64,000 nt of DNA from Candidatus Omnitrophica bacterium UBA6215 (GTDB lineage: Bacteria > Omnitrophota > Gorgyraeia > Pluralincolimonadales > Pluralincolimonadaceae): the NCBI GenBank assembly GCA_002421665.1, contig DISH01000003.1, positions 103,291 to 167,290 on the forward strand. Direction: 5' to 3'. The notes under the pieces are model-generated. The model saw only the letters and a program-made list of their open reading frames with translations, was not told where the DNA came from and made no database searches. Position numbers and translations under genes: made by a program. Positions within the stretch are counted from its first letter, which is position 1, and each line of letters opens with the position of its first letter. Below are positions 5,374 to 29,739 of the stretch, one piece after another.

Positions 5374-5411
5374 GTAATTTCTCTCTAATTACCAAAAGAG
5401 AGAGGCTTGAA

Positions 5412-5447
5412 GCCTTGATCAGTTAACCTGATCAAGGCTTTTTCTTT
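5412..5447 (+). terminator. Rho-independent terminator after the tRNA operon
   Basis: Perfect hairpin GCCTTGATCAG-TTAAC-CTGATCAAGGC followed by TTTTTCTTT. Confidence 0.75.
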
Positions 5448-5719
5448 GTCTTTATATTTTAAAGACTTAGGGCATCGTTTCCCGACGATGTCGTTAGTTT
5501 TATCCACTTTTCTCTTTTAGCGTTTAAAATCTCCGCAAGTTCGGCCAGCTATTCTCCGAAATAGCGCGATTTATCTCTGATTCGGCTTATTTTTGGGCTC
5601 CTGTAGTAAATGCTATTTTGGCCGTAATCTGGTGTTTTCGATTGAGTAAAATGGCCATTTACTAGGAATTGGCGGATATTCGGATGGATTTATCTCTAGT
5701 AAACGGCCTTAAGGTGGGG

Positions 5720-7309
5720 CTAGTTTTGCTGGGGTTTGAGGAGGCCGTTCCAGATCTCCTGCTGCTTATTCCAGTCCATCTCGGTGCTTACGTGGCGCAG
5801 CTTGTACTCGGGGATATCAAATAGCGCCTTATCGGCAGAGAGGAGTATCTCTTCCTGGATTTTTGGCGATATGAGCAACATATTCGCGATATGGCAGATC
5901 CTCGTATGGCTCATACCTAGCCAGCCAGCTATTTCCTTTATAGTGCATTTTCTTTCACGCGCGACCTGGTCAATCTGGTGAGCCAGGATAAGATTTTGAC
6001 GTATAAGTGGTTCCTTGCTTATCCCGGCTTGCTGGCGATGATAGGGGATATGCTTCAATTCGTTCAGTTTTAGCTCGAATTGGCGGCTTTTCTCGCCATT
6101 CTGGAGTACTATTTCGAGGACGCCATTAATCGCGTCGTAATGCGCGACCTTGGCGATTAATTTGAGTATTGGTATCCTTTCTTCTATGGTTAGCGCTTCC
6201 CACGCCTTGGCTTCAATTCGCGGATCTTTGCAGATTGTTCTTAAGAACTCCATAAACTTGTTCTCAATCGCCTGAGCCGAAATAAGGCGTGTTGGGCAGC
6301 TCTTATAGCCCCGTTTTTGGGCGTTCATACAGAGGTAGTAATGGTACCTGGTTGTACCTTTCCTGCTGTAGATGTAGTACATGGTGCTGTCGCAGGCCTT
6401 GCAGCGAAGGATGCCGTTTAATAAGCCTACGCTGGTTGCCACACCTGCGATTTTGCGCTCCCTACGGTTATTGGCCAGTATCTCTTGGGTTTTCTGGAAT
6501 ATCTCATCGGATATTATACGCTCCTGTTCGCCTTGATAAAGTGTTCCGGCATGGTTTACTTTTCCGGTATAGAAGGGGTTCTTTACTATGGACTGGACGC
6601 TGGTGCTCTTGAATTTCATACCACCGGATTTTTTGCCCTTGAAGGTCGTATAGCTCTTTGTGGTATAACCGTTCTCATTGAGAGCTGTTGCCACTGAAAG
6701 AAGGGACTTTTTCTCAAGGTAAAGGTCGAATATCTTTTTAACAAGCTCAGCTTCCTTCGGGTTTATAACCAGCCTTTTGTTTACTTTATCTATGTCATAG
6801 CCTAACGGCGGGCTGCCGCCGACCCATTTGCCTTTCCTCTTGGAGGCGGCCATCTTATCTCTAGTGCGCTCGCTTATTATCTCGCGCTCGAATTGGGCGA
6901 AGGAAAGAAGGATATTCAAGGTGAGCCTTCCCATTGAGGTATTGGTATTGAAGTGCTGGGTTACCGAAACAAAGGATATATTATTCTGCTCGAACGATTC
7001 CAATAACTGGCTAAAGTCCAATAGCGATCTCGACAGCCTATCAACCTTATAGACCACCACACAGTTAACCTTGCCTGCCTTGATATCGGCCATGAGCCTC
7101 TGAAGGGCAGGGCGCTCTGTATTGGCTCCTGTAAAACCAGGATCGTCATAACGCTCGGGAAGAGCTATCCAGCCTTCGGACTTCTGGCTGGCGATGTAGC
7201 TTTCTGCAGACTCGCGCTGGTTATCAAGGGAGGTAAATTCCTGGTCGAGTCCTTCGGTGGTAGAGACTCTCGTGTAAATAGCGCAGTTAACGTTCTTTTT
7301 TTCCATCAT
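5720..7309 (-). CDS. Large serine recombinase (phage integrase / TnpX-CcrB type) with resolvase catalytic domain, recombinase domain and zinc ribbon
   Basis: 529 aa. N-terminus AIYTRVSTTEGLDQ...DRLSRS with the catalytic Ser of the resolvase fold. C-terminal Cys cluster CKACDSTMYY...YYLCMNAQKRGYKSCPTR. Confidence 0.85.
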   Translation of the reverse strand: MMEKKNVNCAIYTRVSTTEGLDQEFTSLDNQRESAESYIASQKSEGWIALPERYDDPGFTGANTERPALQRLMADIKAGKVNCVVVYKVDRLSRSLLDFSQLLESFEQNNISFVSVTQHFNTNTSMGRLTLNILLSFAQFEREIISERTRDKMAASKRKGKWVGGSPPLGYDIDKVNKRLVINPKEAELVKKIFDLYLEKKSLLSVATALNENGYTTKSYTTFKGKKSGGMKFKSTSVQSIVKNPFYTGKVNHAGTLYQGEQERIISDEIFQKTQEILANNRRERKIAGVATSVGLLNGILRCKACDSTMYYIYSRKGTTRYHYYLCMNAQKRGYKSCPTRLISAQAIENKFMEFLRTICKDPRIEAKAWEALTIEERIPILKLIAKVAHYDAINGVLEIVLQNGEKSRQFELKLNELKHIPYHRQQAGISKEPLIRQNLILAHQIDQVARERKCTIKEIAGWLGMSHTRICHIANMLLISPKIQEEILLSADKALFDIPEYKLRHVSTEMDWNKQQEIWNGLLKPQQN

Positions 7310-7314
7310 GCCTC

Positions 7315-7758
7315 CTATAGGTTAAAGAACAGATACCCGTTCCAATGTGAGCCGGTTATCTTTTTGGCGATAGAGGATAAGGTCTTGTATATTTTCCCGT
7401 CATACTCGAAGCCCTTCTCAAGGACCTTCACCTGGTACTTGGCGTCTTTGTATTCCTTGGTTATTGCGGTTCCGGGGATGGGAAGCCGCTTGTCCTTGGC
7501 AGATATTGGATGGCTTACCGCCGGTTTATCCGGCCTCAGGATTTTATTGTTGATTGGATCATACTCCTCAATAAGCGCCTTTAGTTTATTCCTGACTTTG
7601 GGTGACAAATTGCCGTATTCTTGCTCCTGAAGTTTATAGGCAACCTTGCGCCAGAGGTAGAGCTTATGATTACTTACGGCATCTTCGCCGTAGAGTTCCT
7701 TATAGCGCCCAAGGAGTTCTTCTGCGGATGCGTTTTTAAGAGACATTATTTCGCTCAT
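7315..7758 (-). CDS. DUF2924 family protein (serine-recombinase-associated accessory protein)
   Basis: 147 aa. C-terminal pattern KYQVKVLEKGFEYDGKIYKTLSSIAKKITGSHWNGYLFF. Sits 5 nt upstream of, and co-oriented with, the serine recombinase, which is the usual arrangement for this family. Confidence 0.6.
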   Translation of the reverse strand: MSEIMSLKNASAEELLGRYKELYGEDAVSNHKLYLWRKVAYKLQEQEYGNLSPKVRNKLKALIEEYDPINNKILRPDKPAVSHPISAKDKRLPIPGTAITKEYKDAKYQVKVLEKGFEYDGKIYKTLSSIAKKITGSHWNGYLFFNL

Positions 7759-7893: not shown

Positions 7894-8664
7894 ATGAATA
7901 AATGGATTAAGAAAAGTATAGAAATTGCAAATAGTCCTGGCTACTTAGATAAGCTGGGAAAGATTTATGTTATGAATATGAATCCCGAGCGCCCTCTCGA
8001 TGGCGGTATAGAACGCTCTATTCGCGAAGCCTTCAATAATCACGATACCAAGACGTTAATAAAATTGCTTCTGGAAGCAGAAGTTTTCCCCGTTAAGGAT
8101 TCTTATATAGGATTTATTAGAGCAGATGAAAAGGCAATCGATCAAAATCCCGAGACAGTAGAAAGAATAGGGGATCGTTTGTATGGATTAGGGTTAGAGA
8201 AACTTATTCAAGAAGCGACGCGCCCCAAGGAAACAAACAGGCAATTAGGAAGTTCCTTTCGCAGTTGGCTTCCTTCTTTGGTGTACCCGATACTGGAAGA
8301 GGATGAATTTACTAAAGCTAAAGGCATAGCTTTTTTAGCTGGGAGCGACAAGGCACTTAAAGATTACGCAGTTAAACATCTTGGTTGTAGGCTAACCAAG
8401 GGGATAGATGTTTTATTCAAAAAAGACGATATTTATGTAATTGGCGAAGCGAAATTTTTGACTACGCCTGGAGGCGAACAAGACCGCGGTTTTGACGATG
8501 CATCGAAGTTCATTAAAAGTAGATCTGGTAGGGCAAAGAGGATCGCTTTAATAGACGGTTATATTTGGCTTAAAACAAATAAAGGGCTTCATAGCAAAAT
8601 CGTGAAGAGTAATTTAGATATATTCAGCGCTTTGCTATTAAAAGACTTTATAGAAGTACTTTAG
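7894..8664 (+). CDS. Putative type II restriction endonuclease (PD-(D/E)XK fold)
   Basis: 256 aa. IDVLFKKDDIYVIGEAKF fits a D...(E)xK catalytic core. Convergent with the adjacent DNA methyltransferase and overlaps it by 17 nt. Confidence 0.5.
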   Translation: MNKWIKKSIEIANSPGYLDKLGKIYVMNMNPERPLDGGIERSIREAFNNHDTKTLIKLLLEAEVFPVKDSYIGFIRADEKAIDQNPETVERIGDRLYGLGLEKLIQEATRPKETNRQLGSSFRSWLPSLVYPILEEDEFTKAKGIAFLAGSDKALKDYAVKHLGCRLTKGIDVLFKKDDIYVIGEAKFLTTPGGEQDRGFDDASKFIKSRSGRAKRIALIDGYIWLKTNKGLHSKIVKSNLDIFSALLLKDFIEVL

Positions 8665-10447
8665 CCGTTTTATAAAAAGAAAAAGAAGGGGGGCTTTTAA
8701 ATAAGTCTTGTTTTTGATTTAAGTTGGATAATTTTTCTTCCGCAGTTTTTATTGCAGACTCATTAGAATCAATACCAATCCAACCTCGATTTAATTCTTC
8801 CGCCGCAATGAGAGTAGTGCCAGAACCGCAAAAACAATCTAAGATTAAATCTCCTTCTCTCGAAGAGCACAGGATAATCTGTTTTAACAATTCTTCATTT
8901 TTTTCTGTTGGATAAGTCTCACTAACAAATCCCGGATCTCTGAAATCCCAAATATCTTGAATCTTTTTTCCTTTATTCTCATCAGCATAGATTATTTTTC
9001 TTGGGTTATTAGTTTCTGACCATTCAATTAAACCTAATTTATCTAATCTGGTAAGCTCGGCAGGCGGATAGCGCCAGTGTCTTCCCTTAGGTGGCTTTAA
9101 TTCCTTCCAAGGCTGTCCTGTAGGGCCATTTTTAGTTTCCCCTTTTGCATGCAATGGAGTAGTAGCATAGCGTCTACCTTGCTTATCTATTTTTGGGAAT
9201 TGTTTTTCTATTTCTTCCTCAGAAAGCGTTAATCTATAATCAGACCAATACATAGGATCGTTTCCGTTGGGTTTAGATTTGGAGTAGTAATAAATAACAT
9301 CTTTTATGTTGCCATATGCTTTACGTTCAAAATTCTTAGGATTACATTTTATACGTGTTATGTCATTTCGGAAATTTTCTTCTCCAAACACTTCATCCAT
9401 AATAATTTTTATGTAATGACCTATTTTTTGATCTATATGAAGATATATACTGCCATCTTCGGATAATAATTCGCGGAGAAAAACAAGTCGTTTTCTTAGA
9501 AATTCTAGAAATTCTGTATTAATAAGCTTATCGCTGTAGGATTTTTCTTCTTCGTACCCTACAAATTCCTGTCCAGTGCCGAAGGGCGGATCTATATAAA
9601 TGAGATTAACCTTCCCTTTTATGTCTGGATCATCATAAAAATTTTTTAGTATTCCAAGATTATCACCTAGCATAAGTGCATTTTTTGTTTTAGGATTCGG
9701 ACCATACCTTTTAATAAATTTTAATTCAGCAGATGAAGTTTCAAATAAAATTTGTTCTCTTGTTTGCTTACCGGGATACAAAAGCTCACATCCACCTTTT
9801 GGCCTCTTTTCTTTTGGTATAGTATGATTAACTCGTTCTAGTGTTTCTTCTCGAATTGCAGATTTAATTACATCCGTAACTATTCCCTGAATTATCAATT
9901 CATCTGGTTTAACGAATATCGGCTGTAGCCTAGAATTTGCTGGCTGGAGTCTAATCTTACCTCTTTCCTTATAGAATTGTTTTAACGTTGCCTCTGTGTT
10001 GTTTATGAGAGCGACCACCTTCTGCCCGTTTTCAGCAGTTACCTGTTTTTTGACAAGAATAATATCTCCATCGTTAATATTTTCATCTATCATACTTTTT
10101 CCAACTACTTGTAGAGCGAAATAATTATTACCGGTTTTAATTTTATCCTGAGGAACTGCTATACTTTCTCTATCTTCGATTGCCTCAATTGGAGTACCGG
10201 CTGCTATTCGTCCCAAAAGAGGTATTTGGACTAGCTTCTGTTTCGCAAAGACATCAAGCGCTCGCGGTTGATTTTCTTCCTTTCTTAAATAGCCCATACT
10301 TTGTAAAGCTTGGACGTGATAGTGAGCTGTAGAAACAGAAGAGAGGTGAAGATGTTTTTTGATTTCTTCTAAGGAAGGGGCGAAATCATGTTTATCTATG
10401 TAGGTTCTTATAAAATCTAGTACTTGTTTTTGGCGTTTTGTAAGCAT
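8648..10447 (-). CDS. LexA-like repressor (wHTH + S24 autopeptidase) fused in frame to a beta-class N6A/N4C DNA methyltransferase
   Basis: 599 aa. Residues 1-~225 align with LexA: LTKRQKQVLDFI wHTH, IPLLGRIAAGTPIEA with an Ala-Gly cleavage site, VVGKSM catalytic Ser, TLKQF catalytic Lys. Residues ~230-599 carry methyltransferase motif IV IYIDPPFGTG followed by motif I LDCFCGSGTT (beta-class order). No stop codon lies between the two parts. Confidence 0.75.
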   Translation of the reverse strand: MLTKRQKQVLDFIRTYIDKHDFAPSLEEIKKHLHLSSVSTAHYHVQALQSMGYLRKEENQPRALDVFAKQKLVQIPLLGRIAAGTPIEAIEDRESIAVPQDKIKTGNNYFALQVVGKSMIDENINDGDIILVKKQVTAENGQKVVALINNTEATLKQFYKERGKIRLQPANSRLQPIFVKPDELIIQGIVTDVIKSAIREETLERVNHTIPKEKRPKGGCELLYPGKQTREQILFETSSAELKFIKRYGPNPKTKNALMLGDNLGILKNFYDDPDIKGKVNLIYIDPPFGTGQEFVGYEEEKSYSDKLINTEFLEFLRKRLVFLRELLSEDGSIYLHIDQKIGHYIKIIMDEVFGEENFRNDITRIKCNPKNFERKAYGNIKDVIYYYSKSKPNGNDPMYWSDYRLTLSEEEIEKQFPKIDKQGRRYATTPLHAKGETKNGPTGQPWKELKPPKGRHWRYPPAELTRLDKLGLIEWSETNNPRKIIYADENKGKKIQDIWDFRDPGFVSETYPTEKNEELLKQIILCSSREGDLILDCFCGSGTTLIAAEELNRGWIGIDSNESAIKTAEEKLSNLNQKQDLFKSPPSFSFYKTAKVLL

Positions 10448-10591
10448 TTTAGTTAATATATCTTCTCGCTTGACTTTCGATTTATTTTCGATTATACTAT
10501 ACTCGCGCTAGAAGTCAAGAAAATTCTTAGAAGTTCGTTTCTTGGCAGAGGTAACTGTAAACAACCATAGTTTTTAGGAAGGTAGATTGTT
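10448..10591. promoter_or_regulatory. Divergent promoter/operator region between the LexA-MTase and patatin genes
   Basis: Minus strand: TTGACT - 16/17 nt - TATAAT reads into lexA-MTase. Plus strand: TTGACT - 17 nt - TATACT reads into patatin. The region also has direct repeats TTTCGATT x2 and TAGAAGT x2, which are candidate operators. Confidence 0.45.
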
Positions 10592-11641
10592 ATGGATAAT
10601 TCAAGTAACGCTAGAAACGGCATAGGGTTAGCGCTATCAGGGGGTGGTAGCAGAGCTATAGCATTTCATTATGGTGTTCTTGAAGCGCTCCATGATTTTG
10701 AAATAGACAAAAAAATTAAAGTAGTGTCAGCTATCTCTGGAGGGGCCGTCATCGCTGCTTTATGGACTGTCCATTCTGATGATTGGGACTTATTTACAAA
10801 GAATATAGAGTTGGTATTGGACAAGGGGCTCGAAGGAACAATTTTTAAGAAACTAAAGCATCCGCTCGTTCTATTACAGCAGTTATTCCATTTAGGAATA
10901 GACTCTGGCTTACTTGCGGAAGCCTTGGATGAGCTAGTTTTGAATGGTAAAAAACTTAAAGAATTGCCAGAAAATCCAACCCTTATTTTAAACGCTACTG
11001 ATTTACGCACGGGTAGCAACTTTAAGTTTAGCAAATCAGTGTGTGGATCACATAAGGATGGCGGTAGCGACCTCTGTGACATGCGACTAAGCGATGCCGT
11101 AGCCTGTTCAGCCGCTTACCCGCTGTGTTTTAAGGCTAAGAAGATACGAATGGATAACGGTAAAGATGTATTTCTAACAGATGGCGGATCGTACGATTGT
11201 TTAGGGGCTAATGCATTAATGCCCGATAAAGATGAGGGAATATCAATATTGATCCAAAACTGTGAGACTATTATTACAAGCGATGCCTCGGCTCCATTTT
11301 TAGAAGACAGGAAATATTTAGGAAGGTCTATAGGTGATGCACTGTACTCGTCTTATTTAACCTGCGCTAAGAGGACACGCTCTTTGATATATAACAAAAT
11401 GTATCACCTTAAAGAAATCGGAGAGATACCCTATTTAGGTACAATCAAAATGGACAGCAAACACCCAGACGTAACCGCTAGTTGGAGTAAAGCAGATTTA
11501 GAGTTTGTAAATGGTTATAAGACTAATTTCAAGCCAGTTACTGGAAAGGCTGCCACCTATCTCAAGAAGCGCGGTAAAGAATCGGCAGAAATAATAGTAA
11601 AAAAATATTTACCACACTTAGTTACAAATAAACAGCTATAA
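10592..11641 (+). CDS. Patatin-like phospholipase
   Basis: 349 aa. Oxyanion motif LSGGGSRAIA, GxSxG nucleophile AISGGAV, catalytic Asp in LTDGGSYD. Confidence 0.85.
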   Translation: MDNSSNARNGIGLALSGGGSRAIAFHYGVLEALHDFEIDKKIKVVSAISGGAVIAALWTVHSDDWDLFTKNIELVLDKGLEGTIFKKLKHPLVLLQQLFHLGIDSGLLAEALDELVLNGKKLKELPENPTLILNATDLRTGSNFKFSKSVCGSHKDGGSDLCDMRLSDAVACSAAYPLCFKAKKIRMDNGKDVFLTDGGSYDCLGANALMPDKDEGISILIQNCETIITSDASAPFLEDRKYLGRSIGDALYSSYLTCAKRTRSLIYNKMYHLKEIGEIPYLGTIKMDSKHPDVTASWSKADLEFVNGYKTNFKPVTGKAATYLKKRGKESAEIIVKKYLPHLVTNKQL

Positions 11642-11654
11642 GGAGGAAAATAAA

Positions 11655-12737: not shown

Positions 12738-12738
12738 A

Positions 12739-13518: not shown

Positions 13519-13657
13519 TTCGAGTTAATAGATAATCAAAGAAAGATAACAATGTCAAAGATTATCGACCCCAACAAGATTAGAGTAGGCGATGTCATCC
13601 TTGTGGCCAGTGGTACAAGAGTTACCATCAACATTAAACAAAAACTCGGATAATAAA

Positions 13658-16367: not shown

Positions 16368-16368
16368 C

Positions 16369-19404: not shown

Positions 19405-19425
19405 TGATGGTTAATAGAAAAGATA

Positions 19426-22668: not shown

Positions 22669-22693
22669 GCAACTATCTAAACTGCGCAAAATT

Positions 22694-23926: not shown

Positions 23927-23953
23927 AATAGGAAAATAATTTAGAGGCCAAAA

Positions 23954-24814
23954 ATGGATAAAAAGAAAGATATCCCTTACGAAAAAGTCATAAAAGACTT
24001 AACTAGCATAACCGATAAATTTAAAGAAGTTAGTTGTTTTAAGAAAAAAGAGATAGAAGATATCGAACAGACGCGCAGACAACTAGATATTGTAAAGGAT
24101 TACTGGAAGGCAAATCCAAATCCACCTTCATCGTTAGCATATGCCACGCTTACCTCGGCGGCAAGCTATATTCATGAATTCAAAAGCTATGTCAACCACA
24201 TTGGTCCTTCAGAATTTACGGGTTCGCTTTTGGGAACCGCAATTAGTTCCGGCGATTCGATAGTGGCAACTGGCATGACCCTTTCGTATATCGCTCCAAC
24301 TAATGATGAGGCCGTTAAAAAAAAGTTAGAAGTTAAATTTGTTGAAATAAAAGAAGCTCCCAGAAGAAAAAACCGCAGAAAGGAAATCAAAAGATATCTT
24401 AAAAAATTATCCCCTCATTTGGCTTCTGCCTATGAAGGAGCATGGGAAAATCTCGAAACAAATTTTAGCGATTCGGAAAGAGGGGCTGCTTTTCTTATGA
24501 GAGAAGTGGTGTCGCAAGTTTTAGATATTTTAGCTCCAAAAGAGGCAATTAAAACATCAGATTTTATTCCTGACCCAACAGCAAAAGACGGTGTTACTCG
24601 AAAACATAGGTTAGAATACATAGCAACCCATAAGGCAAAAGGCAGTTTTAGCAAGGAATTATTAGATAGAAGTATTCAGGGTTTCTTGGATACTTACGAA
24701 GGTTTAAACGATGCCCATAAGAGAACTTTTCTTGATAAATCAAAAATAGAAAGTTTTTTATTTCAAGCCGATGATTTATTGCATACGCTTTTTAATTCGG
24801 TAATAATCGATTAA
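23954..24814 (+). CDS. Hypothetical protein
   Basis: 286-aa ORF with RBS-like AGAGG upstream. No recognisable family. Sits immediately upstream of the HNH gene. Confidence 0.5.
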   Translation: MDKKKDIPYEKVIKDLTSITDKFKEVSCFKKKEIEDIEQTRRQLDIVKDYWKANPNPPSSLAYATLTSAASYIHEFKSYVNHIGPSEFTGSLLGTAISSGDSIVATGMTLSYIAPTNDEAVKKKLEVKFVEIKEAPRRKNRRKEIKRYLKKLSPHLASAYEGAWENLETNFSDSERGAAFLMREVVSQVLDILAPKEAIKTSDFIPDPTAKDGVTRKHRLEYIATHKAKGSFSKELLDRSIQGFLDTYEGLNDAHKRTFLDKSKIESFLFQADDLLHTLFNSVIID

Positions 24815-24830
24815 ATTAGAGAGACAATTA

Positions 24831-25295
24831 ATGCCAGAATACACATCATCATATGCAAAAAATATAATAAAACGATCTCTACGAGAAATTATCGACCCTG
24901 GTCCTAGTAAGAAAGAAAAGCAAACAATCTGGGATTATTTTGGTTCGGAATGTGCTTATTGTGGTAAGAGACTACATAAAGGGCGTAGAGAAGGGCATAT
25001 TGATCATTTAGTTCCTAATGGTGCTAACCAGCTTTATAATCGGGTACTATCTTGCAAGGAATGCAACGGAGATGAGAAACGCGATAAATCCTGGAAGAGG
25101 TTTCTGGCGCAAAAGCGCTCGAATGTAAAGATCAAAGCCAAAAGAAAAGCGAAAATATTGCAGTGGCAAAAAAGGCATAAAAAGCCTATTTTTAGAAAAG
25201 GCGTTCTATCTAAAGTAGAATCTCTCCAGGATAATGTAATATCGTATTATGAGAGAAATGTAGAGAAGGCGAGAAGACTGCGAAACAAAAGGTAA
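24831..25295 (+). CDS. HNH endonuclease
   Basis: 154 aa. CAYCG ... HIDHLVP ... CKECN HNH/zinc-finger motif. Confidence 0.75.
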   Translation: MPEYTSSYAKNIIKRSLREIIDPGPSKKEKQTIWDYFGSECAYCGKRLHKGRREGHIDHLVPNGANQLYNRVLSCKECNGDEKRDKSWKRFLAQKRSNVKIKAKRKAKILQWQKRHKKPIFRKGVLSKVESLQDNVISYYERNVEKARRLRNKR

Positions 25296-25313
25296 TCTCG
25301 ATAGGTCAAAAGT

Positions 25314-26048
25314 ATGATTTCTGTAAATAGTGATGGTAAATTATGTGTCGGATGGGTTCAAAATGGCATAAACCATAAAAGATATTTTCGCTCTGAAAAG
25401 GAATCCGAACGTTTTCAGGAGATGGTAGTCGACATTCAGAATTGCATGAAGCTTTCTGAAGAGATGGAACGCTTTGCCAGGAATTTTAATTATGATCCAA
25501 AACTCGTTGAGCTAAAATTTGCACAACTTGGCAAAGAAATAGAAGAACTTAAAGAACGAATAAGAATCAAAGAATTGCTCCAAAAGAAACTCGGTATAGC
25601 GGCTCAAAGATTAGCCGACCAGCCAAGAAACGTAATCGACAAGGACGCCTTCTTTAAAGAAATAAAGCAGCTCAAGGTTGAAATTAATAGGCTGGATAGA
25701 TTCTTTAGGGAGCACGCCATCCTTTCTTTGCACAAATCTCTTCAAGAGACTCTTTCTGAAATGAAAGAGTATTTTATGTACCAAAAGGCGACCATTAAAA
25801 ACGTAGAAGAGATGTTTAAGCAGCTAAGAAAAGAGGTCGTTCAGAAATTTTCTAGCATAACGACTAAGGATAAAGTTTTGACTATAAAGGAGACCGCAGA
25901 ATATCTTGGCATAAGCTATTCGACTGTTCAGTCCATGATGTTCATGCAAGGGCTTCCCTATACAAGAGTAGGCAATAGGTATAGGATAAAAGAAAACGAT
26001 CTACAATCCTGGCTGGAAAAACGTAAGCAAAAAACGACAAGAACATAA
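25314..26048 (+). CDS. Excisionase/MerR-like HTH DNA-binding protein with central coiled coil
   Basis: 244 aa. C-terminal LTIKETAEYLGISYSTVQSM...GLPYTRVGNRYRI is an HTH_17/excisionase-type motif. Confidence 0.5.
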   Translation: MISVNSDGKLCVGWVQNGINHKRYFRSEKESERFQEMVVDIQNCMKLSEEMERFARNFNYDPKLVELKFAQLGKEIEELKERIRIKELLQKKLGIAAQRLADQPRNVIDKDAFFKEIKQLKVEINRLDRFFREHAILSLHKSLQETLSEMKEYFMYQKATIKNVEEMFKQLRKEVVQKFSSITTKDKVLTIKETAEYLGISYSTVQSMMFMQGLPYTRVGNRYRIKENDLQSWLEKRKQKTTRT

Positions 26049-26060
26049 TAAAAGGGGCGA

Positions 26061-26750
26061 ATGAAACTCTACAAATTTAGGCCACTTGAAGGCACTGAAC
26101 GTGACATAGATGGTAGTAACGACAGCAACTTTAAGCGCGCTAAAACAATTTTGGAAAATGGTGAGTTCTGGTGCTCTAAATTTTCAGAGCTCAACGATCC
26201 GATGGAAGGCGTATTCTATGGTTCAGCGGATTTAATCGATGCCATATATACAAAGAAGCTCCAGTATAAAATATGTTCTTTTTCAGCTAAAAGAGCCTTT
26301 GAAAAGCCCTACATGTGGGGATATTATGCGAATGGTTTTAAGGGCATGGCAATCGAGATTGAGGTAGACACCGGAGATGTAAAAGAAATATGTTATAGCA
26401 ATAAAATACCAAGCGTGGAATATTTAACAGCTTCTTGCAGAATGTATGGTGATGAAGTGATTTTAAAGATTCTCACGACTAAATCAAGTCCTTGGAAGCG
26501 CGAAGCAGAGTATAGGTTCTTGATAAAAGATGAAAAGAAATACCACAAAATAGGAGAAATCACTAAAGTATATTTTGGAAATCCTTATGGAGGGGTAGGG
26601 AATAAGAAACCCATTTATGAAAATAACCAAAACCTGCTAAACTATGACAAATTAAAAAAATATCTAATAAAGTTCGCAAATGAACGTAATATATGTTGTT
26701 ACTCTATTAAAATCAAAGATGGTAAAGTGCTACCCGATGAGAAATTGTGA
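26061..26750 (+). CDS. DUF2971 family protein
   Basis: 229 aa. N-terminal LYKFR...FWCSKFSELNDPMEG matches the DUF2971 signature. Confidence 0.55.
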   Translation: MKLYKFRPLEGTERDIDGSNDSNFKRAKTILENGEFWCSKFSELNDPMEGVFYGSADLIDAIYTKKLQYKICSFSAKRAFEKPYMWGYYANGFKGMAIEIEVDTGDVKEICYSNKIPSVEYLTASCRMYGDEVILKILTTKSSPWKREAEYRFLIKDEKKYHKIGEITKVYFGNPYGGVGNKKPIYENNQNLLNYDKLKKYLIKFANERNICCYSIKIKDGKVLPDEKL

Positions 26751-26798
26751 GCGAATTATGGCATAGATTTTCCCTAAAGCAAATCTTAGGAGATCGGC

Positions 26799-27437
26799 AT
26801 GAAAATAGTTTGCACCCGCTGCAGAACAGTTATGGGCGAACAAAAGCCATATAAAGACCCCTCCGAAATCAAAGCTACCTGCACTGCCTGTATCGAAAAA
26901 GCAAAAGAGGAAGCCGCACGATTTGTGCCCGAGCCTGAACCTAGTGATGGGCAAGAGATAATGCTGGAAAATGGCCTTAAGGGCACGCTCTGGGTCGCAA
27001 AAGACAAAAAGGGGAAGCTTTCCTTTGGGGAGCTGGTCGTTAGTGGTAGAAAGTTCTATTGTTTAAGTAATGGACGAGATAAATTTCAGGAGTATCTTGG
27101 CAGTTTAAAAGACGAAGAGGCCGATGTTTCATTTCTCCATTCCATGACGTGTAAAATAGACTCTCTTCCCAGAGGTCAGAGAAAAAAGCAAGATCCCCCT
27201 AAGGCAGAAGAATCAAAAAAGGACGAAAGCATTTATTATAACTGTACGGTGAGGGTACCTAAGCATTGTGTTCAGCCAATGTTTGATGATATGGCCGAAC
27301 GGATGGATAAGGTCGCTAAAATACTCGCAGAAGCAGCGCTTAACTTATATAAGAAAGAGCGTCAAAAGGCTGCCCAAGATGGCGGCCTAGCGCCGATGTC
27401 CACCTTTAAAGGGGCGGACATCCATAACTCCAGATAG
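26799..27437 (+). CDS. Hypothetical protein (N-terminal CxxC...CxxC)
   Basis: 212 aa. CTRCRT...CTAC Cys pairs. GC content is higher than the neighbouring island genes. Confidence 0.5.
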   Translation: MKIVCTRCRTVMGEQKPYKDPSEIKATCTACIEKAKEEAARFVPEPEPSDGQEIMLENGLKGTLWVAKDKKGKLSFGELVVSGRKFYCLSNGRDKFQEYLGSLKDEEADVSFLHSMTCKIDSLPRGQRKKQDPPKAEESKKDESIYYNCTVRVPKHCVQPMFDDMAERMDKVAKILAEAALNLYKKERQKAAQDGGLAPMSTFKGADIHNSR

Positions 27438-27598
27438 CTTAAAAAGTTGCGCAGTTTTGAGCCAAAATTGACCGGACAAAACGGACAAATTCTAGACTAT
27501 TTTGTCCGCTTAAATGACTGTTTCCCGGTCCGGTAGGCAGCGAGGAATAGTATCTCGGAGCTGGAATATTGCTTGATACGATAGGGTAGTACGGCTAT

Positions 27599-27840
27599 AA
27601 TACCCCTGTATAAAAGAGAGATACTTTATCGTAGTGAGACGGCCAACGGCCGCCATTACTTCCCCTATATAGGCGTAACGAAGTATGCCGAGTTCAGCCG
27701 TGGAGGATTCTGTAAGAATCCGACCGGCGTTTTGAACGAGGAATAAGGTGTATAGGCAAGCAGCAGGAGCGGTTAAGATGGGTAATTTACATTTATTATA
27801 GTAATCATAGGGCGTTAGGAAACTAACGCCCTTTTTATTT
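27599..27840 (+). ncRNA. Candidate small non-coding RNA (promoter-to-terminator unit, no plausible ORF)
   Basis: Sigma70-like promoter: TTGATA (27564-27569), 17 nt, TATAAT (27587-27592). A strong terminator lies at 27809-27840. The internal stem-loops include GGATTCT-GTA-AGAATCC nested in GTTCAGCCG...CGGCGTTTTGAAC. Only 7- and 16-codon ORFs are present. Confidence 0.4.
27809..27840 (+). terminator. Rho-independent terminator
   Basis: AGGGCGTTAG-GAAA-CTAACGCCCT followed by TTTTTATTT. Confidence 0.75.
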
Positions 27841-28015
27841 CGCTATGCTATAAAAAGCGAAGTTCGTCTATTAAGCTAATACCGGCAAACTACGAAGTTT
27901 TTTCTCAAAATCCGTGTTTGCTGCAAGTTATTAAGATGTTATAATTTAGTATGGTTTCAAGTCAATAGCACAAAAAACGACACTCGTCTATTAAATGTTA
28001 GAATAATGATAAATA

Positions 28016-28696
28016 ATGATAAACATAGAAAATAAAGCAATGATGAAACAGGTAATAATATCGGTCAGTATTTGTGCATGCTGTTTTATGCTATTCGGCT
28101 GCGTTTCTCTATCAACAAATAAAACACAAGTCATAAATTTACCTTATGATATATCTATGTCTGATACTATTAGAAAACTTGGAGAACCATTAGAGCAAAA
28201 GAAAATATCTTCTGATATTACTCGACTCGCTTACAAAAATTCAATGTGGTCATCATTTGAACAATATTGGCTGTATTTTCGTAATGATAAATTGATAAAA
28301 AAATCCTATAGAGAAAATATCTATAAAGATATCCAAGATTATTACGAATTAGGCTTAATATCAAAAGATGAAATGGAGCGTCAATGCAGTATAAGACAAG
28401 CCAATGCAATGCAGATACTTCAGGCGTATAGTGAAATAAAAACTATGGAGTACGAACGCGAATCTCTCGATAACCAAAAACAAATTATATCCAATCAGAA
28501 AAAAATATTGAAACAGCAAACGGGTACCACATTTACCCCTGGCCAGAATCTTTATGACCAATATGGCAACTCCCTTGGTCGTATTGATAGCAACGGGCAT
28601 GTGTACGACCAGTATGGAAACCCGCAAGGTAGTATAGATAGCAGTGGGAACATCTATGACCAGTACGGCAACTCTCTTGGTCGTATAGGCCGTTAA
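28016..28696 (+). CDS. Lipoprotein with C-terminal tandem 17-aa repeats
   Basis: 226 aa. Signal peptide plus lipobox MLFGC. C-terminal repeats YDQYGNSLGRIDSNGHV / YDQYGNPQGSIDSSGNI / YDQYGNSLGRIGR. Confidence 0.65.
   Translation: MINIENKAMMKQVIISVSICACCFMLFGCVSLSTNKTQVINLPYDISMSDTIRKLGEPLEQKKISSDITRLAYKNSMWSSFEQYWLYFRNDKLIKKSYRENIYKDIQDYYELGLISKDEMERQCSIRQANAMQILQAYSEIKTMEYERESLDNQKQIISNQKKILKQQTGTTFTPGQNLYDQYGNSLGRIDSNGHVYDQYGNPQGSIDSSGNIYDQYGNSLGRIGR
28553..28696 (+). repeat. Tandem repeat, about 2.8 copies of a 51-bp unit inside the lipoprotein gene
   Basis: Units at 28553-28603, 28604-28654 and 28655-28696 (TATGACCA(A/G)TA(T/C)GG(C/A)AAC...). Confidence 0.8.
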
Positions 28697-28722
28697 CTTG
28701 TCTAATACGATGCTAAGCTCCA

Positions 28723-29412
28723 ATGGTTGAAACTAAAATGAAAAGAATGAAATTAACCCTTCAACAAGAATTCAGTAAGGAAGAATATGAAGTTCTTAGA
28801 ATTATGCGCCAAGTATTGCTTGATACCAGCGATGGTTCTATTTATTCTTGGGCAAAAACGACTAAATCAAAAGAATTGGCCGTAATCCTTCACCATTTGT
28901 TATTTTCCTGCAGAGATTCCTTAGGTAGCATTTTCACCTTAATGCATGATTACGGATATTTTTCTATATATATAATAGGCGCTACACTAGTTGAATATTT
29001 TATAGATTTCTCCTTTATTCTAAAAATCAAAGAGCTTGCCGGCTCAAGAGCCAAAGAATACTTCAATGCTTTAAAGGATAATAGAAAGCCCTTTTTAAGA
29101 AATAAAAAGTATCATTGTTTAGAACAACGCGCAAAAGAAGCCGGATTAACCAGTTTGTACAACAAAACGTATAGGTCCCTATGTTCCTTTAAGCATGTAA
29201 ATTTAAAAGGGCATTTGACAACTCGTCGAGACGATAAATTGAAAAAAGACAGGAAAATATTTATGCTGCAAATGACAAATCTATATTTAGAAATGTGGCA
29301 AACACTTAATGATTATTTGAATAACCGCAATCTTAACGTAAAGATACGAGGCTTGCTTAATAAAGAATTCGTTGAAATAGAAGGATTAATAAAGAAAGAT
29401 TTAATTTTCTAA
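28723..29412 (+). CDS. Hypothetical protein
   Basis: 229-aa AT-rich ORF with no recognisable family. Last island-type gene before the boundary repeats. Confidence 0.5.
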   Translation: MVETKMKRMKLTLQQEFSKEEYEVLRIMRQVLLDTSDGSIYSWAKTTKSKELAVILHHLLFSCRDSLGSIFTLMHDYGYFSIYIIGATLVEYFIDFSFILKIKELAGSRAKEYFNALKDNRKPFLRNKKYHCLEQRAKEAGLTSLYNKTYRSLCSFKHVNLKGHLTTRRDDKLKKDRKIFMLQMTNLYLEMWQTLNDYLNNRNLNVKIRGLLNKEFVEIEGLIKKDLIF

Positions 29413-29487
29413 CAATTCACTCCAGCGGACAGCGCCAGCGTGTTTATGAGGGTCGCCGCCGCTGAGTTCAAATGTTAAAGGAATAAC

Positions 29488-29715
29488 ATGGAAAATAATA
29501 AAAAAGAGATCAGATTGATTTTAATACTGCAGATAGCAACAGCATGCTTTATGGCAATCGTTACCGTGACAGAGATAAACAAATTAAATGCTTATAATAG
29601 TATAGTAAAGGAATATAAAGAGGAAATGGTTAAATATAAGCAAAGAAACGCTCAATATGATGAGGAGATGAGAAAGTACAAGGAACGCGTTAACCGGCAA
29701 AACAAAGACTTCTAA
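29488..29715 (+). CDS. Small membrane protein (1 TM + coiled-coil tail)
   Basis: 75 aa. Hydrophobic LILILQIATACFMAIVTVT followed by a charged KEYKEEMVKYKQRNAQYDEEMRKYKER tail. Flanked by 12-bp direct repeats. Confidence 0.5.
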   Translation: MENNKKEIRLILILQIATACFMAIVTVTEINKLNAYNSIVKEYKEEMVKYKQRNAQYDEEMRKYKERVNRQNKDF

Positions 29716-29739
29716 CAATTCGCTTCAACGGATTAACAA

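What the first reader, a model, noticed from the sequence alone, without database searches (positions are those of the whole stretch)
5374..29730. About 24 kb AT-rich genomic island beside tRNA-Asp, opened by a large serine recombinase + DUF2924 pair
The base composition drops sharply (roughly 35-40% GC against 55-60% in flanking core) from just after tRNA-Asp to just before the SemiSWEET gene. Almost all cargo is mobile-element, defence or effector type: an RM pair, patatin, MBL, several PD-(D/E)XK, HEPN-like, HNH, lipase/EEP, terminases, XRE, excisionase-like and DUF2971. The integrase is a serine rather than tyrosine recombinase, which is less usual for tRNA-adjacent islands. A second mobility-type module (excisionase-like + DUF2971 at 25.3-26.8 kb) hints that the island is composite.
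Basis: partly seen in the sequence, partly recalled or inferred. Interest (0 to 1): 0.6.

Follow-up and report, generated by a model that had tools for sequence, protein, structure and literature searches.

The report
Serine-recombinase defence island at tRNA-Asp
A 24-kb block of foreign, AT-rich DNA sits exactly at the end of a tRNA-Asp gene in an uncultured Omnitrophota bacterium; it belongs to a previously undescribed family of mobile islands that carry a serine integrase, a phage DNA-packaging motor but no virus shell genes, and swappable anti-phage defence genes.

Summary
Window 5374-29412 (24,039 bp) has 39.2% GC against 53.1% in the flanks, with a clearly separate tetranucleotide signature. 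A relative has the empty site: tRNA-Asp, 185 nt, then SemiSWEET. Other relatives carry different cargo there.

The block is not a one-off. It belongs to a family of Candidatus Omnitrophota elements with a fixed backbone: large serine recombinase, DUF2924, cargo 1, ParB::methyltransferase, TerS, TerL, XRE and cargo 2.

- **Insertion point:** five members start immediately after the CCA end of a tRNA gene (Asp; Glu-CTC twice, at one shared locus; Glu-TTC; His).
- **No virion genes:** none of the members seen from recombinase to terminase has any. The smallest is about 7.7 kb.
- **Cargo:** here it is defence-type. It includes a Tsp45I-like restriction enzyme whose methyltransferase is fused to a complete LexA repressor, a 6A-MBL-like E2/MBL/patatin module, a lipase and nuclease pair, and several nucleases and candidate systems.

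Most likely it is a serine-recombinase-integrated, satellite-like defence island. Integration is well supported. Spread by packaging is inferred.

The attR arm and any present-day mobility remain undemonstrated.

The parts
5295..5373 (+). tRNA-Asp(GTC), the integration target. The island starts at the base after its CCA.
   Evidence: ARAGORN and Rfam tRNA at 65.5 bits. Junction table.
5374..5719 (.). Conserved non-coding end of the element (346 nt). It starts GTAATTTCTCTCT...AGAGAGAGG (an inverted repeat). It also holds a strong terminator at 5409-5441 facing the tRNA and a 51-bp inverted-repeat site at 5655-5706 just after the recombinase stop.
   Evidence: About 75-77% identical, right up to the tRNA CCA, in elements at other tRNAs (alignments A2 and A4). 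Terminator. Inverted-repeat arms.
5720..7309 (-). Large serine recombinase (529 aa), convergent on the tRNA.
   Evidence: Pfam Resolvase, Recombinase and Zn_ribbon_recom. The YxRxS catalytic motif is invariant in 22 homologues (A5). At least 120 clusters share 57-86% identity (five of them truncated, plus one 100% fragment), and every organism named by a source is Omnitrophota.
7315..7758 (-). DUF2924 protein (147 aa), 5 nt upstream of the recombinase gene in the same operon.
   Evidence: Pfam 6.1e-39 and phrog_11806 4.8e-38. It is directly upstream of the recombinase in 77 of 80 IMG/VR loci and in all family members.
7894..8664 (+). Tsp45I-family type II restriction endonuclease.
   Evidence: Pfam Tsp45I 7.8e-74. 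PADLOC REase_II 1.5e-51.
8648..10447 (-). LexA::methyltransferase fusion (599 aa). Residues 1-195 are a full LexA (DNA-binding domain plus S24 autopeptidase). Residues about 215-599 are an N6/N4 DNA methyltransferase.
   Evidence: Pfam LexA_DNA_bind 4.3e-18, Peptidase_S24 2.3e-30, N6_N4_Mtase 5.1e-48. End-to-end match to LexA structures 3k2z (1.4e-35) and 1jhh, with the Ala-Gly cleavage site, the Ser of GKSM and the Lys of TLKQF conserved. PADLOC MTase_II 2.1e-140. 55 of the 120 listed clusters have the same three-domain architecture.
10470..10518 (.). Back-to-back promoters for lexA::M (minus strand, TTGACT-16-TATAAT) and the patatin operon (plus strand). They overlap a tandem AATCGAAA(A/G) repeat at 10474-10493, a candidate operator.
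   Evidence: Promoter scan scores 11/12 and 10/12. The promoter and repeat are conserved in L029 although the methyltransferase and cargo differ.
10592..13518 (+). Cargo 1: patatin phospholipase (10592-11641), MBL-fold protein (11655-12737) and E2-like protein (12739-13518). Together they form a 6A-MBL-like candidate defence module.
   Evidence: Patatin 5.2e-19. NCBIfam '6A-MBL system MBL-fold protein' 6.7e-17, below the curated cutoff. PADLOC E2 1e-28.
13592..14878 (+). PD-(D/E)XK / Cas4-like exonuclease. It is not conserved in other family members.
   Evidence: PDDEXK_1 3.2e-29. phrog_69 exonuclease 2.5e-24. No tblastn hit in the other elements.
15102..16367 (+). ParB_N::N6/N4 DNA methyltransferase (backbone).
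   Evidence: Pfam. phrog_498 2.1e-119. 51-59% identical in L028, L029 and L031. Also present in L117 and L118.
16306..17043 (+). Small-terminase-like HTH protein (backbone). The true start is probably near 16366.
   Evidence: Sigma70_r4/HTH hits. 66% identical in L031 and 36% in L028, always between ParB::MTase and TerL.
16958..18634 (+). Large terminase TerL (backbone). It is called as 535 aa starting at 17027.
   Evidence: phrog_38 7.4e-108 and Terminase_6C. 164 homologues at E<=1e-30; of the 13 that carry an organism name, 11 are Omnitrophota/Omnitrophica.
18641..18856 (-). XRE/Cro-type regulator, divergent from cargo 2.
   Evidence: HTH_26 9.1e-13. Its sequence and position are conserved after TerL in L031 (A3). 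L118 has a weak-HTH (XRE-type) gene one gene further on, after a 173-aa ORF.
18971..29412 (+). Cargo 2 (about 10.4 kb): three unknown ORFs (18971-20584); Lipase_3 (20729-21604) plus EEP/MnuA-like nuclease (21604-22668); a 410-aa unknown; a pPIWI-associated-nuclease-like protein (23954-24814); HNH (24831-25295); an HTH_17 protein (25314-26048); PDC-S31 (26061-26750); 212-aa and 226-aa unknowns; and a DUF5677/AbiB-like protein (28723-29412).
   Evidence: The Lipase_3 (291 aa) plus EEP (364 aa) pair recurs as cargo in another family member. No PHROG structural hit for any of these ORFs.
29411..29739 (+). Outside the island: a native hairpin (AACAATTCACTCC...) and a 75-aa ORF (29488-29715). It is AT-rich but shared by strains with different upstream cargo.
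   Evidence: L025, L026 and L027 are 98.5-98.7% identical from about 29411-29453 onward and unrelated upstream. The homologous hairpin lies downstream of tRNA-Asp in L013 and L015.

Best explanation
Window 5374-29412 is an integrated mobile element of a family that is widespread in Candidatus Omnitrophota.

**Integration.** Its large serine recombinase, always paired with a DUF2924 DNA-binding protein, inserted a circular form immediately after the CCA end of tRNA-Asp. The tRNA stays intact and no direct repeat is made. The element brings its own terminator against read-through from the tRNA.

**Backbone.** The family backbone is recombinase, DUF2924, cargo region 1, ParB::methyltransferase, TerS, TerL, XRE and cargo region 2. 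It contains no capsid, portal, tail, replication or conjugation genes.

**Cargo.** The two cargo regions hold interchangeable anti-phage systems. Here they are:
- a Tsp45I-like restriction enzyme;
- its methyltransferase, fused to a self-cleaving LexA repressor;
- a 6A-MBL-like patatin/MBL/E2 operon, driven from the same operator region as lexA::M;
- a lipase and nuclease pair;
- several nucleases and candidate defence systems.

**Dispersal (inferred).** The element probably spreads like a phage satellite, using its own TerS and TerL to load its DNA into the capsids of a helper phage. DNA damage may act as the trigger through the LexA module.

**What is shown and what is inferred.** Shown: foreign composition, the empty site, the exact tRNA-end junction in five elements, the conserved backbone, the absence of structural genes and the identity of the cargo. 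Inferred: the recombinase is still active, packaging by a helper phage, and SOS control.
For: **Composition and empty site.**
- GC and tetranucleotide signature are foreign.
- L013 has the empty site. L015 (an OLD nuclease), L011 (an autotransporter), L014 and L012 have different inserts at the same place.
- L011 keeps an approximately 85-nt relic of the element end next to its tRNA-Asp.

**Junctions.**
- The 346-nt element end is conserved up to the tRNA CCA at tRNA-Asp, tRNA-Glu(CTC) twice, and tRNA-Glu(TTC). In the 67%-identity member at tRNA-His only about 44 nt and the CTCTCT/AGAGAG motif are shared.
- There is no terminal repeat and no displaced tRNA fragment, as expected for a serine recombinase.

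**Backbone in other members.**
- L031/L032.
- L117, a minimal element of about 7.7 kb that ends 140 nt after TerL.
- L118, with CBASS as cargo.
- L029, with the same order and a LexA::MTase.
- Five contig lengths recur in both the recombinase and TerL hit lists. Three of these were confirmed as one contig or element.

**No structural genes.** Pfam and PHROGs give no structural hits for any island ORF.

**Phage-type modules.** The DUF2924 and recombinase pair is a phage-type module: 77 of 80 IMG/VR loci have it, and it is reported in Wolbachia phage WO (PMC10299305).

**Host mismatch.** The other hosts fetched for the family have 34-44% GC in their flanks. That explains why the element stands out in this 53% GC host.
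Against: - No attR or P-arm sequence could be recognised. The right end is defined only by comparison with other strains.
- No circular junction or same-strain empty site was found, so present-day mobility is unproven.
- No replication module (primase or Rep) is present, unlike classical PICI and P4 satellites.
- At 24 kb the element is larger than typical satellites.
- The 10.4-kb cargo 2 could have accreted at the hotspot independently of the element.
- L028 shows TerL next to the recombinase end, an arrangement the simple model does not predict.
- No helper phage is known.
- In L117 the ParB and methyltransferase parts are called as two overlapping ORFs, which may indicate decay.
Confidence: 0.7

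Rival explanations
1. It is a grounded, decayed prophage. A temperate phage integrated with its serine integrase at tRNA-Asp, lost its structural and lysis genes, and the remnant became a landing pad for defence genes. It no longer moves.
For: - The TerS, TerL, ParB::MTase and exonuclease genes match phage families.
- Recombinase relatives at 42-56% identity occur in 412 IMG/VR stretches.
- No attR was recognised.
- L117 has a split ParB/MTase.
Against: - Four elements, in different hosts and at three different tRNAs, share the same structural-gene-free backbone with an intact TerL. One is only about 7.7 kb.
- Independent decay to the same architecture is unlikely.
- No member with structural genes next to this TerL lineage was seen.
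Confidence: 0.17
2. It is a chromosomal defence hotspot filled piecemeal. The tRNA-Asp/SemiSWEET gap accumulates unrelated genes by several mechanisms. The recombinase element accounts for only the left part (about 5.4-18.9 kb), and the right 10 kb predates it or arrived separately.
For: - Every relative has different content at this gap.
- Strains 98.5% identical in the right flank have other genes next to the hairpin.
- A Logan contig breaks at about 21.86 kb, and contigs from three Logan samples start at 29447.
- The minimal family member ends right after TerL.
Against: - Family members L031 and L118 also carry variable genes after TerL and XRE.
- The Lipase_3 and EEP pair circulates as cargo in another family member.
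- There is no second integrase or transposase.
- Composition is uniform at 37-38% GC across cargo 2.
Confidence: 0.1
3. It is an assembly or binning chimera that joins a low-GC organism's contig to a high-GC genome.
For: There is a sharp 14-point GC step. The other hosts of this element family have low GC.
Against: - The left junction is crossed by ENA, JGI and Logan assemblies (L006-L008).
- The right junction is crossed by ENA, JGI and a second ENA sample (L001, L002, L024).
- The junction falls exactly at a tRNA CCA, as in the other family members.
Confidence: 0.02

Closest known systems
Phage satellites / phage-inducible chromosomal islands (SaPI/PICI, cf-PICI, P4-like satellites with defence hotspots)
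   Same: - An integrase sits at one end.
- There are no, or few, virion genes.
- It carries its own terminase small subunit.
- Regulators of the XRE and LexA/CI type are present.
- Variable anti-phage cargo sits in defined hotspots.
- Insertion is site-specific.
   Different: - The integrase is a large serine recombinase, not a tyrosine one.
- It carries both TerS and TerL but no capsid or portal, which cf-PICIs have.
- No primase or replication module was found.
- At 24 kb it is larger than usual.
- The host is an uncultured phylum.
- Helper dependence is untested.
Tycheposons of Prochlorococcus (bioRxiv 10.1101/2020.12.28.424599)
   Same: - They are tRNA-adjacent integrative elements that build genomic islands.
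- A minority (27 of 937) use a large serine recombinase.
- A PICI-like subset carries terS or a capsid gene.
- The structure is a modular backbone plus cargo.
   Different: - Tycheposon hallmarks are tyrosine recombinases and replication genes (primase, helicase), and their cargo is mostly nutrient-uptake genes.
- Here there is no replication module.
- The backbone is DUF2924, ParB::MTase, TerS and TerL.
- The cargo is defence.
Temperate phages with serine integrases (phiC31, Bxb1, A118, SPbeta; Wolbachia phage WO with its DUF2924 and recombinase pair)
   Same: - The three-domain recombinase is the same (Resolvase, Recombinase, zinc ribbon).
- There are no flanking direct repeats.
- DUF2924 lies directly upstream, as reported for WO (PMC10299305).
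   Different: - From my own knowledge, those integrases usually target sites inside protein-coding genes. This family inserts at the CCA end of several different tRNA genes.
- The elements here lack all structural genes.
Type II restriction-modification systems whose methyltransferase carries an N-terminal HTH for autoregulation (SsoII/EcoRII type; my own knowledge), and SOS-cleavable element repressors such as SetR or CI
   Same: - A DNA-binding domain is fused to the N-terminus of the methyltransferase, next to its own promoter.
- Orthologous methyltransferases in other lineages carry an HTH_17 domain in that position.
- The LexA module has the cleavage site and the Ser/Lys dyad of self-cleaving repressors.
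   Different: - The fused domain is a complete LexA (DNA-binding domain plus S24 peptidase).
- I found no description of such a fusion in the searchable literature.
- NCBI simply names these proteins 'transcriptional repressor LexA'.
6A-MBL anti-phage system (NCBIfam NF058524; cited in PMC13276650 as validated in Pseudomonas aeruginosa)
   Same: An MBL-fold protein lies next to an E2-like protein.
   Different: - The MBL hit scores 61.6 bits, far below the 220-bit family cutoff.
- A patatin gene heads the operon.
- Membership is therefore only tentative.

Membership tests
Large serine recombinase (serine integrase) | N-terminal resolvase catalytic domain with the nucleophilic serine | tested here: met
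   PF00239 5.8e-40 over residues 10-162. R14 and S16 are invariant in 22 homologues.
Large serine recombinase (serine integrase) | Recombinase domain plus zinc-ribbon domain in a C-terminal extension of more than 300 aa | tested here: met
   PF07508 4.4e-19 and PF13408 1.8e-11. The protein is 529 aa.
Large serine recombinase (serine integrase) | Integration without long direct repeats (2-bp crossover) at short attB and attP sites | tested here: inconclusive
   There are no terminal repeats and no duplicated tRNA fragment, which fits. However, the crossover dinucleotide and the P arm at the right end were not identified.
Large serine recombinase (serine integrase) | Recombination activity and a directionality factor for excision | not testable with these tools
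   DUF2924 is a candidate accessory protein only. Its structure model was unusable (pLDDT 39) and no PDB relative was found.
tRNA-adjacent genomic island | Atypical composition relative to the host | tested here: met
   39.2% against 53.1% GC. Tetranucleotide L1 distance 0.50 against 0.165 +/- 0.015.
tRNA-adjacent genomic island | Absent from the syntenic site in relatives | tested here: met
   In L013, tRNA-Asp is followed after 185 nt by SemiSWEET. L015, L011 and L014 have other inserts.
tRNA-adjacent genomic island | Integrase gene at the tRNA-proximal end | tested here: met
   The recombinase stop codon is 346 nt from the tRNA CCA.
tRNA-adjacent genomic island | Flanking direct repeats derived from the tRNA 3' end | tested here: not met
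   None found. This is expected, because the integrase is a serine type, not a tyrosine type.
Phage satellite / PICI | No virion structural genes, but genes to redirect packaging | tested here: met
   TerS-like and TerL are present. There is no capsid, portal or tail hit in Pfam or PHROGs for any ORF. The same holds for L117, L118 and L031/L032, judged from precomputed Pfam on the called genes and, for L031's post-TerL ORFs only, a direct Pfam scan. No PHROGs scan was run on these loci.
Phage satellite / PICI | Own replication module (primase or Rep plus origin) | tested here: not met
   No primase, Rep or replicative helicase domain was found in any island ORF. Seven ORFs remain without annotation.
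Phage satellite / PICI | Helper-phage-induced excision and packaging | not testable with these tools
   This needs an experiment or virus-particle metagenomes. Scans of IMG/VR with TerL, the recombinase, ParB::MTase and a DNA seed found no close copy.
Intact prophage | Capsid, portal, tail and lysis genes | tested here: not met
   No such hits.
Integrative conjugative or mobilisable element | Relaxase, coupling protein, type IV secretion genes | tested here: not met
   No such Pfam hits in any island ORF.
LexA repressor | Winged-helix DNA-binding domain plus an S24 domain with the Ala-Gly cleavage site and Ser/Lys dyad | tested here: met
   PF01726 4.3e-18 and PF00717 2.3e-30. Full-length alignment to 3k2z and E. 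coli LexA with IAAG, GKSM and TLKQF aligned.
LexA repressor | Stand-alone protein of about 200 aa that controls an SOS regulon | tested here: not met
   Here it forms the first 195 residues of a 599-aa methyltransferase. The candidate operator is seen only at its own promoter.
Type II restriction-modification system (Tsp45I family) | Adjacent REase and cognate-type methyltransferase genes | tested here: met
   Tsp45I REase 7.8e-74, convergent with and overlapping the MTase gene. The same pair occurs in a Parcubacteria genome with no recombinase within 6 kb upstream or in the 3 kb of contig available downstream (L119). The recognition sequence was not determined; GTSAC is not avoided in the host core.
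6A-MBL defence system | Family-specific MBL-fold enzyme and 6A-type E2 | tested here: inconclusive
   NF058524 6.7e-17 but 61.6 bits against a 220-bit cutoff. PADLOC E2 models 1e-28.

The most novel reading that the evidence does not exclude
These Omnitrophota islands may be a new class of phage satellite with three linked properties.
- The serine integrase recognises the universal T-loop/acceptor/CCA end of tRNA genes, so it can use many different tRNAs as attB.
- The element carries its own complete terminase (TerS and TerL) plus a ParB::methyltransferase, so it packages and pre-methylates its own DNA into stolen capsids.
- The switch is a self-cleaving LexA fused to the restriction-system methyltransferase. 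DNA damage or phage attack would then simultaneously release the defence operon and, possibly, the recombinase operon.
Probability: 0.25. Interest if true: 0.75.

Novelty: new variant of a known kind. Interest (0 to 1): 0.52.

Why it matters
**Mobile elements in an uncultured phylum.** Omnitrophota are uncultured, often ultra-small bacteria whose mobile elements are essentially uncharacterised. I found no paper that combines Omnitrophota with serine recombinases. A conserved island family that shuttles defence systems among them would be a main route of immune-gene exchange in the phylum. The systems seen include restriction-modification, CBASS, 6A-MBL-like, type I RM with TIR, SNF2 with NOV, and an OLD nuclease at the same hotspot.

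**A possible genome-engineering tool.** Serine integrases are prized tools for genome engineering. A clade that inserts cleanly at the CCA end of several tRNA genes, leaving the tRNA intact, would have an unusual and potentially portable target.

**An untested regulatory idea.** The LexA::methyltransferase fusion is present in at least 55 protein clusters across Omnitrophota and candidate-phyla-radiation bacteria. It suggests that restriction-modification could be wired to the SOS signal by self-cleavage of the methyltransferase itself.

Tried and rejected
1. **Terminal repeats.** Direct and inverted repeats flanking the island: none significant. A displaced tRNA-Asp 3' fragment or a second copy of the element end: none.
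2. **First guess at the left boundary.** I first placed it at about 5457, because relative L011 shares the post-tRNA terminator. I rejected this when elements at other tRNAs proved to share the whole 346 nt up to the CCA. L011 therefore holds a relic of such an element.
3. **Logan contig ends as junctions.**
   - Ends at 5373 are explained by a co-occurring L015-like strain that diverges at 5374.
   - Starts at 29447 fall inside a strain-hypervariable hairpin interior and remain unexplained.
   - A 'GAGTTCAAAT' match to the tRNA T-loop at 29461 is part of that native hairpin, not a tRNA remnant.
4. **Known RNAs.** An Rfam scan of the island found only the two tRNAs.
5. **Scans of public collections.**
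   - IMG/VR with TerL, the recombinase or ParB::MTase as single proteins: nothing close.
   - JGI metagenomes with TerL: one locus.
   - A 16-nt seed from the conserved end: 34 hits, all chance.
   - Extending L035's contig showed that it ends in ParB::MTase.
6. **DUF2924.** The single-sequence AlphaFold model had pLDDT 39 and is unusable. A PDB sequence search found nothing meaningful.
7. **Recognition-site avoidance.** GTSAC (the Tsp45I site) is not avoided in the host core, with 35 observed against 36.6 expected.
8. **A third operator copy.** An AATCGAAAA lies upstream of the DUF2924 and recombinase operon (7830-7838), but it is not conserved in L029 and the motif count in the window is not above chance (5 against 2.9 expected). 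Control of the recombinase by LexA::M therefore stays speculative.
9. **Recognising attR.** An ATTAAT lies 29 nt from the junction both at the window's right end and on L028's 'P side'. This is too weak to use.

Full report
**1. The observation**

A sliding GC profile shows 0.50-0.555 on both sides and 0.33-0.47 between about 5.4 and 29.7 kb. Over the refined interval 5374-29412 (24,039 bp) the GC is 39.2%, against 53.1% for the rest of the window.

The tetranucleotide L1 distance to the core is 0.50 inside (minimum 0.37) and 0.165 +/- 0.015 outside (maximum 0.197). After removing the base-composition effect, the correlation with the core signature is 0.56 inside and 0.89 outside. ARAGORN finds tRNA-Val at 5177-5253 and tRNA-Asp(GTC) at 5295-5373.

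Pfam confirms the following:
- large serine recombinase at 5720-7309(-)
- DUF2924 at 7315-7758(-)
- a Tsp45I restriction enzyme and an N6/N4 methyltransferase
- patatin and a weak MBL hit
- a PD-(D/E)XK nuclease
- ParB::methyltransferase and TerL
- Lipase_3 and an EEP nuclease
- a pPIWI-associated-nuclease domain, HNH, HTH_17 and XRE
- SemiSWEET at 29740-29994

Two corrections apply: the flanks are about 53% GC, not 55-60%, and the right end needs moving (section 3).

**2. It is an insertion, at a hotspot**

The flanking M48 peptidase gene finds relatives in Candidatus Omnitrophota genomes.
- In L013 (flank proteins about 80% identical) the order is M48, tRNA-Val, tRNA-Asp, 185 nt, SemiSWEET, a 240-aa gene, Zincin. 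This is an empty site.
- In L015 (95% identical flanks) the gap holds one OLD-family nuclease gene.
- In L011 it holds a 1370-aa autotransporter-like gene.
- L014 and L012 hold other DNA.

Both junctions in the window are crossed by independent ENA, JGI and Logan assemblies. A chimera is therefore excluded.

**3. Boundaries**

I first placed the left edge at about 5457, because L011 shares the post-tRNA terminator. That was wrong.

The recombinase has at least 120 homologous clusters (57-86% identity for the full-length ones), and every organism that a source names for them is Omnitrophota. I fetched the DNA around five of them (L028, L029, L032 and L034 from the recombinase list; L117 reached through its TerL). 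In L028, L029 and L034 the whole 346 nt between the recombinase stop and the tRNA is about 75-77% identical to the window, right up to the base after a tRNA's CCA. L032, with a 67%-identical recombinase, shares only about 44 nt of it plus the CTCTCT/AGAGAG inverted repeat at the junction. L117's junction was read directly and shows the same motif.

The tRNAs differ between elements:

| Element | tRNA at the junction |
|---|---|
| window | Asp(GTC) |
| L029 | Glu(CTC) |
| L117 | Glu(CTC) |
| L034 | Glu(TTC) |
| L032 | His(GTG) |

On the tRNA strand the junction reads ...CCA | (G/A)TA..CTCTCTC..N6-9..GAGAGAGG, followed by a strong terminator. So 5374 is the first base of the element, and L011 carries an approximately 85-nt relic of a former family member at the same tRNA-Asp.

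On the right, strains L025, L026 and L027 are 98.5-98.7% identical to the window from about 29411-29453 onward but unrelated upstream. The shared sequence begins with a hairpin (AACAATTCACTCC...) that is homologous to the native sequence downstream of tRNA-Asp in L013 and L015. The right edge is therefore about 29411 +/- 3. The AT-rich 75-aa ORF at 29488-29715 lies outside the island.

No terminal direct repeat and no displaced tRNA fragment exists. This is what a serine recombinase, with its 2-bp crossover, predicts. I could not recognise the P arm at the right end.

**4. The family backbone**

| Locus | tRNA or flank | Gene order |
|---|---|---|
| L029 | tRNA-Glu(CTC) | recombinase, DUF2924, a different REase, LexA::MTase, cargo, N6/N4 MTase |
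| L031/L032 | tRNA-His | recombinase, DUF2924, HTH_17, a 1437-aa helicase, two MTases, ResIII..., ParB::MTase, TerS, TerL, XRE(-), REase-ARP, HD |
| L118 | not fetched | recombinase, DUF2924, EEP, patatin, a CD-NTase (CBASS), ParB::MTase, TerS, TerL, a 173-aa ORF, XRE(-)... |
| L117 | tRNA-Glu(CTC) | recombinase, DUF2924, RhuM, ParB/MTase, TerS, TerL, then a host Na+/H+ exchanger 140 nt later; about 7.7 kb in total |

- Three further recombinase neighbourhoods, L034 and the contexts of P0003 and P0020 (the last two as gene tables only, no DNA held), show other defence-type cargo next to DUF2924. In L034 this is SNF2, NOV_C, an MTase and an SbcCD-like pair. The P0003 context has Lipase_3, EEP, MBL and NucS. 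The P0020 context has SLFN/AlbA.
- Five contig lengths appear in both the recombinase and TerL hit lists. Three of these were confirmed as one contig or element by look-up.
- No island ORF in the window hits a capsid, portal, tail, lysis, replication or conjugation family in Pfam or PHROGs.
- The same holds for the other members that were seen from recombinase to terminase. That rests on precomputed Pfam for their called genes and, for L031's post-TerL ORFs, a direct Pfam scan.

The backbone is therefore: recombinase, DUF2924, cargo 1, ParB::MTase, TerS, TerL, XRE(-) and cargo 2. Four elements in different hosts share this structural-gene-free layout with an intact TerL. That argues against independent prophage decay and for a satellite-like life style. 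I stress that packaging is inferred, not shown.

The lack of a replication module is a real difference from PICI and P4 satellites. The DUF2924 and recombinase pair itself is phage-typical. It occurs in 77 of 80 IMG/VR loci encoding recombinase relatives at 42-56% identity and is reported in Wolbachia phage WO (PMC10299305). DUF2924 is said to overlap the RAMA DNA-binding domain (PMC11342252).

The other hosts fetched for the family have 34-44% GC in their flanks, and there the elements are compositionally inconspicuous. The window's 53% GC host makes this copy stand out and suggests acquisition from a lower-GC lineage.

**5. Cargo in this copy**

Cargo 1:
- A Tsp45I-family REase at 7894-8664.
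- A convergent, overlapping methyltransferase at 8648-10447(-).
- An operon of patatin, an MBL-fold protein and an E2-like protein. The MBL-fold protein hits the NCBIfam 6A-MBL model at 6.7e-17, below its cutoff. The E2-like protein hits PADLOC E2 at 1e-28.
- 6A-MBL is cited as a validated anti-phage system in Pseudomonas (PMC13276650).

Cargo 2 (18971-29412):
- Three unknown ORFs.
- Lipase_3 plus an EEP/MnuA-like nuclease. This pair recurs in another family member.
- A 410-aa unknown.
- A pP_pnuc_1 nuclease and an HNH nuclease.
- An HTH_17 protein followed by PDC-S31 (3e-35).
- Two unknowns.
- A DUF5677/AbiB-like protein.

There is no integrase with it.

**6. The LexA::methyltransferase fusion**

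- Residues 1-195 of the 599-aa methyltransferase align end to end with LexA structures (3k2z at 1.4e-35; E. coli 1jhh).
- The Ala-Gly cleavage site (IAAG), the catalytic Ser (GKSM) and the Lys (TLKQF) are all present.
- The rest is a beta-class N6/N4 methyltransferase (PADLOC MTase_II 2.1e-140).
- The same three-domain architecture occurs in 55 of the 120 listed protein clusters (57-100% identity). Where a source names an organism, it is Omnitrophota, Paceibacterota or Parcubacteria. NCBI names these proteins 'transcriptional repressor LexA'.
- Orthologous methyltransferases elsewhere carry an HTH_17 domain or nothing at the N-terminus.
- In a Parcubacteria genome the fusion is paired with a Tsp45I REase. 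No recombinase lies within 6 kb upstream or in the 3 kb of contig available downstream. It is therefore a property of the RM cassette.
- In the window the best promoter of the region (TTGACT-16-TATAAT, 11/12) drives the fusion gene. It sits back to back with the patatin-operon promoter.
- Both promoters overlap a tandem AATCGAAA(A/G) repeat at 10474-10493.
- The promoter, the repeat and the LexA-coding part are about 77% identical in L029, where the methyltransferase, REase and cargo are different.

My inference is that the LexA domain autoregulates the RM system and the adjacent cargo operon, and that RecA-stimulated self-cleavage would release them. A link to the recombinase operon is speculative. 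The third motif copy at 7830-7838 is not conserved, and the motif count in the window is not above chance. I found no literature on such a fusion.

**7. What remains open**

- The attR/P arm and the crossover dinucleotide.
- Whether cargo 2 moves with the element.
- Why L028 has TerL next to the recombinase end, separated by a tRNA-like 3' fragment.
- Why contigs from three Logan samples start at 29447, inside a hairpin whose interior is hypervariable between strains.
- The function of DUF2924 (model pLDDT 39; no PDB relative).

**8. Verdict**

The serine recombinase is not incidental: it defines a family that inserts at the CCA end of several different tRNAs.

The most likely nature is a satellite-like, terminase-bearing defence island. 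Confidence that it is an integrated mobile element of this family is about 0.85. Confidence in the satellite dispersal mode is about 0.4-0.5.

It is a new variant of known kinds (phage satellites, tRNA islands, tycheposon-like elements) rather than a new category. Interest is moderate.

Noticed in passing
window 8648-10447 (-); also L029 about 6855-8351 and L119 6001-7767: The restriction-system methyltransferase is fused to a complete, apparently cleavage-competent LexA. 55 of the 120 listed clusters share the architecture, with source names from Omnitrophota, Paceibacterota and Parcubacteria. Databases label them plain 'LexA'. No literature was found.
   Followed up: partly
window 29411-29475; L025 about 1520-1580; L027 1-70: A hairpin (AACAATTCACTCCAGCGGA ... 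CCGCTGAGTTCAAATG) has an interior that is completely different between strains otherwise 98.5% identical. Contigs from three Logan samples all start at 29447, inside it.
   Followed up: partly
window 29410-29429 and 29714-29733: An imperfect 20-nt direct repeat, TAACAATTC(A/G)CT(C/T)CA(G/A)CGGA, brackets the hairpin and the 75-aa ORF. Each copy starts at a TAA stop codon. This may be a tiny older insertion at the same hotspot.
   Followed up: no
L028 11597-12215: In this family member the recombinase-proximal end abuts a tRNA-like 3' fragment (GGGGATAACCCCCCTACCA). About 275 nt further on is the stop codon of TerL, with several TGGACA repeats in between. It looks like an unrecombined attP or a tandem junction inside a chromosome.
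   Followed up: partly
L011 1870-1955: A relative without the island keeps about 85 nt of the element's terminal sequence (CTCT/GAGAG inverted repeat plus terminator) after its tRNA-Asp. An unrelated autotransporter gene follows. This is a scar of a lost family member.
   Followed up: yes
L015 1643-3562: In the closest relative (95% identical flanks) the same tRNA-Asp/SemiSWEET gap holds a single OLD-family (AAA_15 plus Toprim) nuclease gene that ends directly at the SemiSWEET start codon.
   Followed up: partly
window 5655-5706: A 51-bp site with 11-nt inverted ends (CCATTTACTAG-N29-CTAGTAAACGG) lies immediately after the recombinase stop. It is conserved in four elements. It may be a protein-binding site of unknown role.
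   Followed up: no
L007 11703-13332 (JGI assembly of the same contig): The JGI assembly calls the recombinase as a 364-aa gene plus a 46-aa fragment, whereas the ENA and Logan assemblies give 528 aa. This is an assembly error or a real frameshift variant in that sample.
   Followed up: no
window 20729-22668; P0003 context; L118 2891-4885: A Lipase_3 (291 aa) and EEP-nuclease (354-364 aa) gene pair recurs as cargo in another family member. L118 has a 293-aa ORF followed by an EEP. No defence database lists the pair, so it may be an undescribed two-gene system.
   Followed up: no
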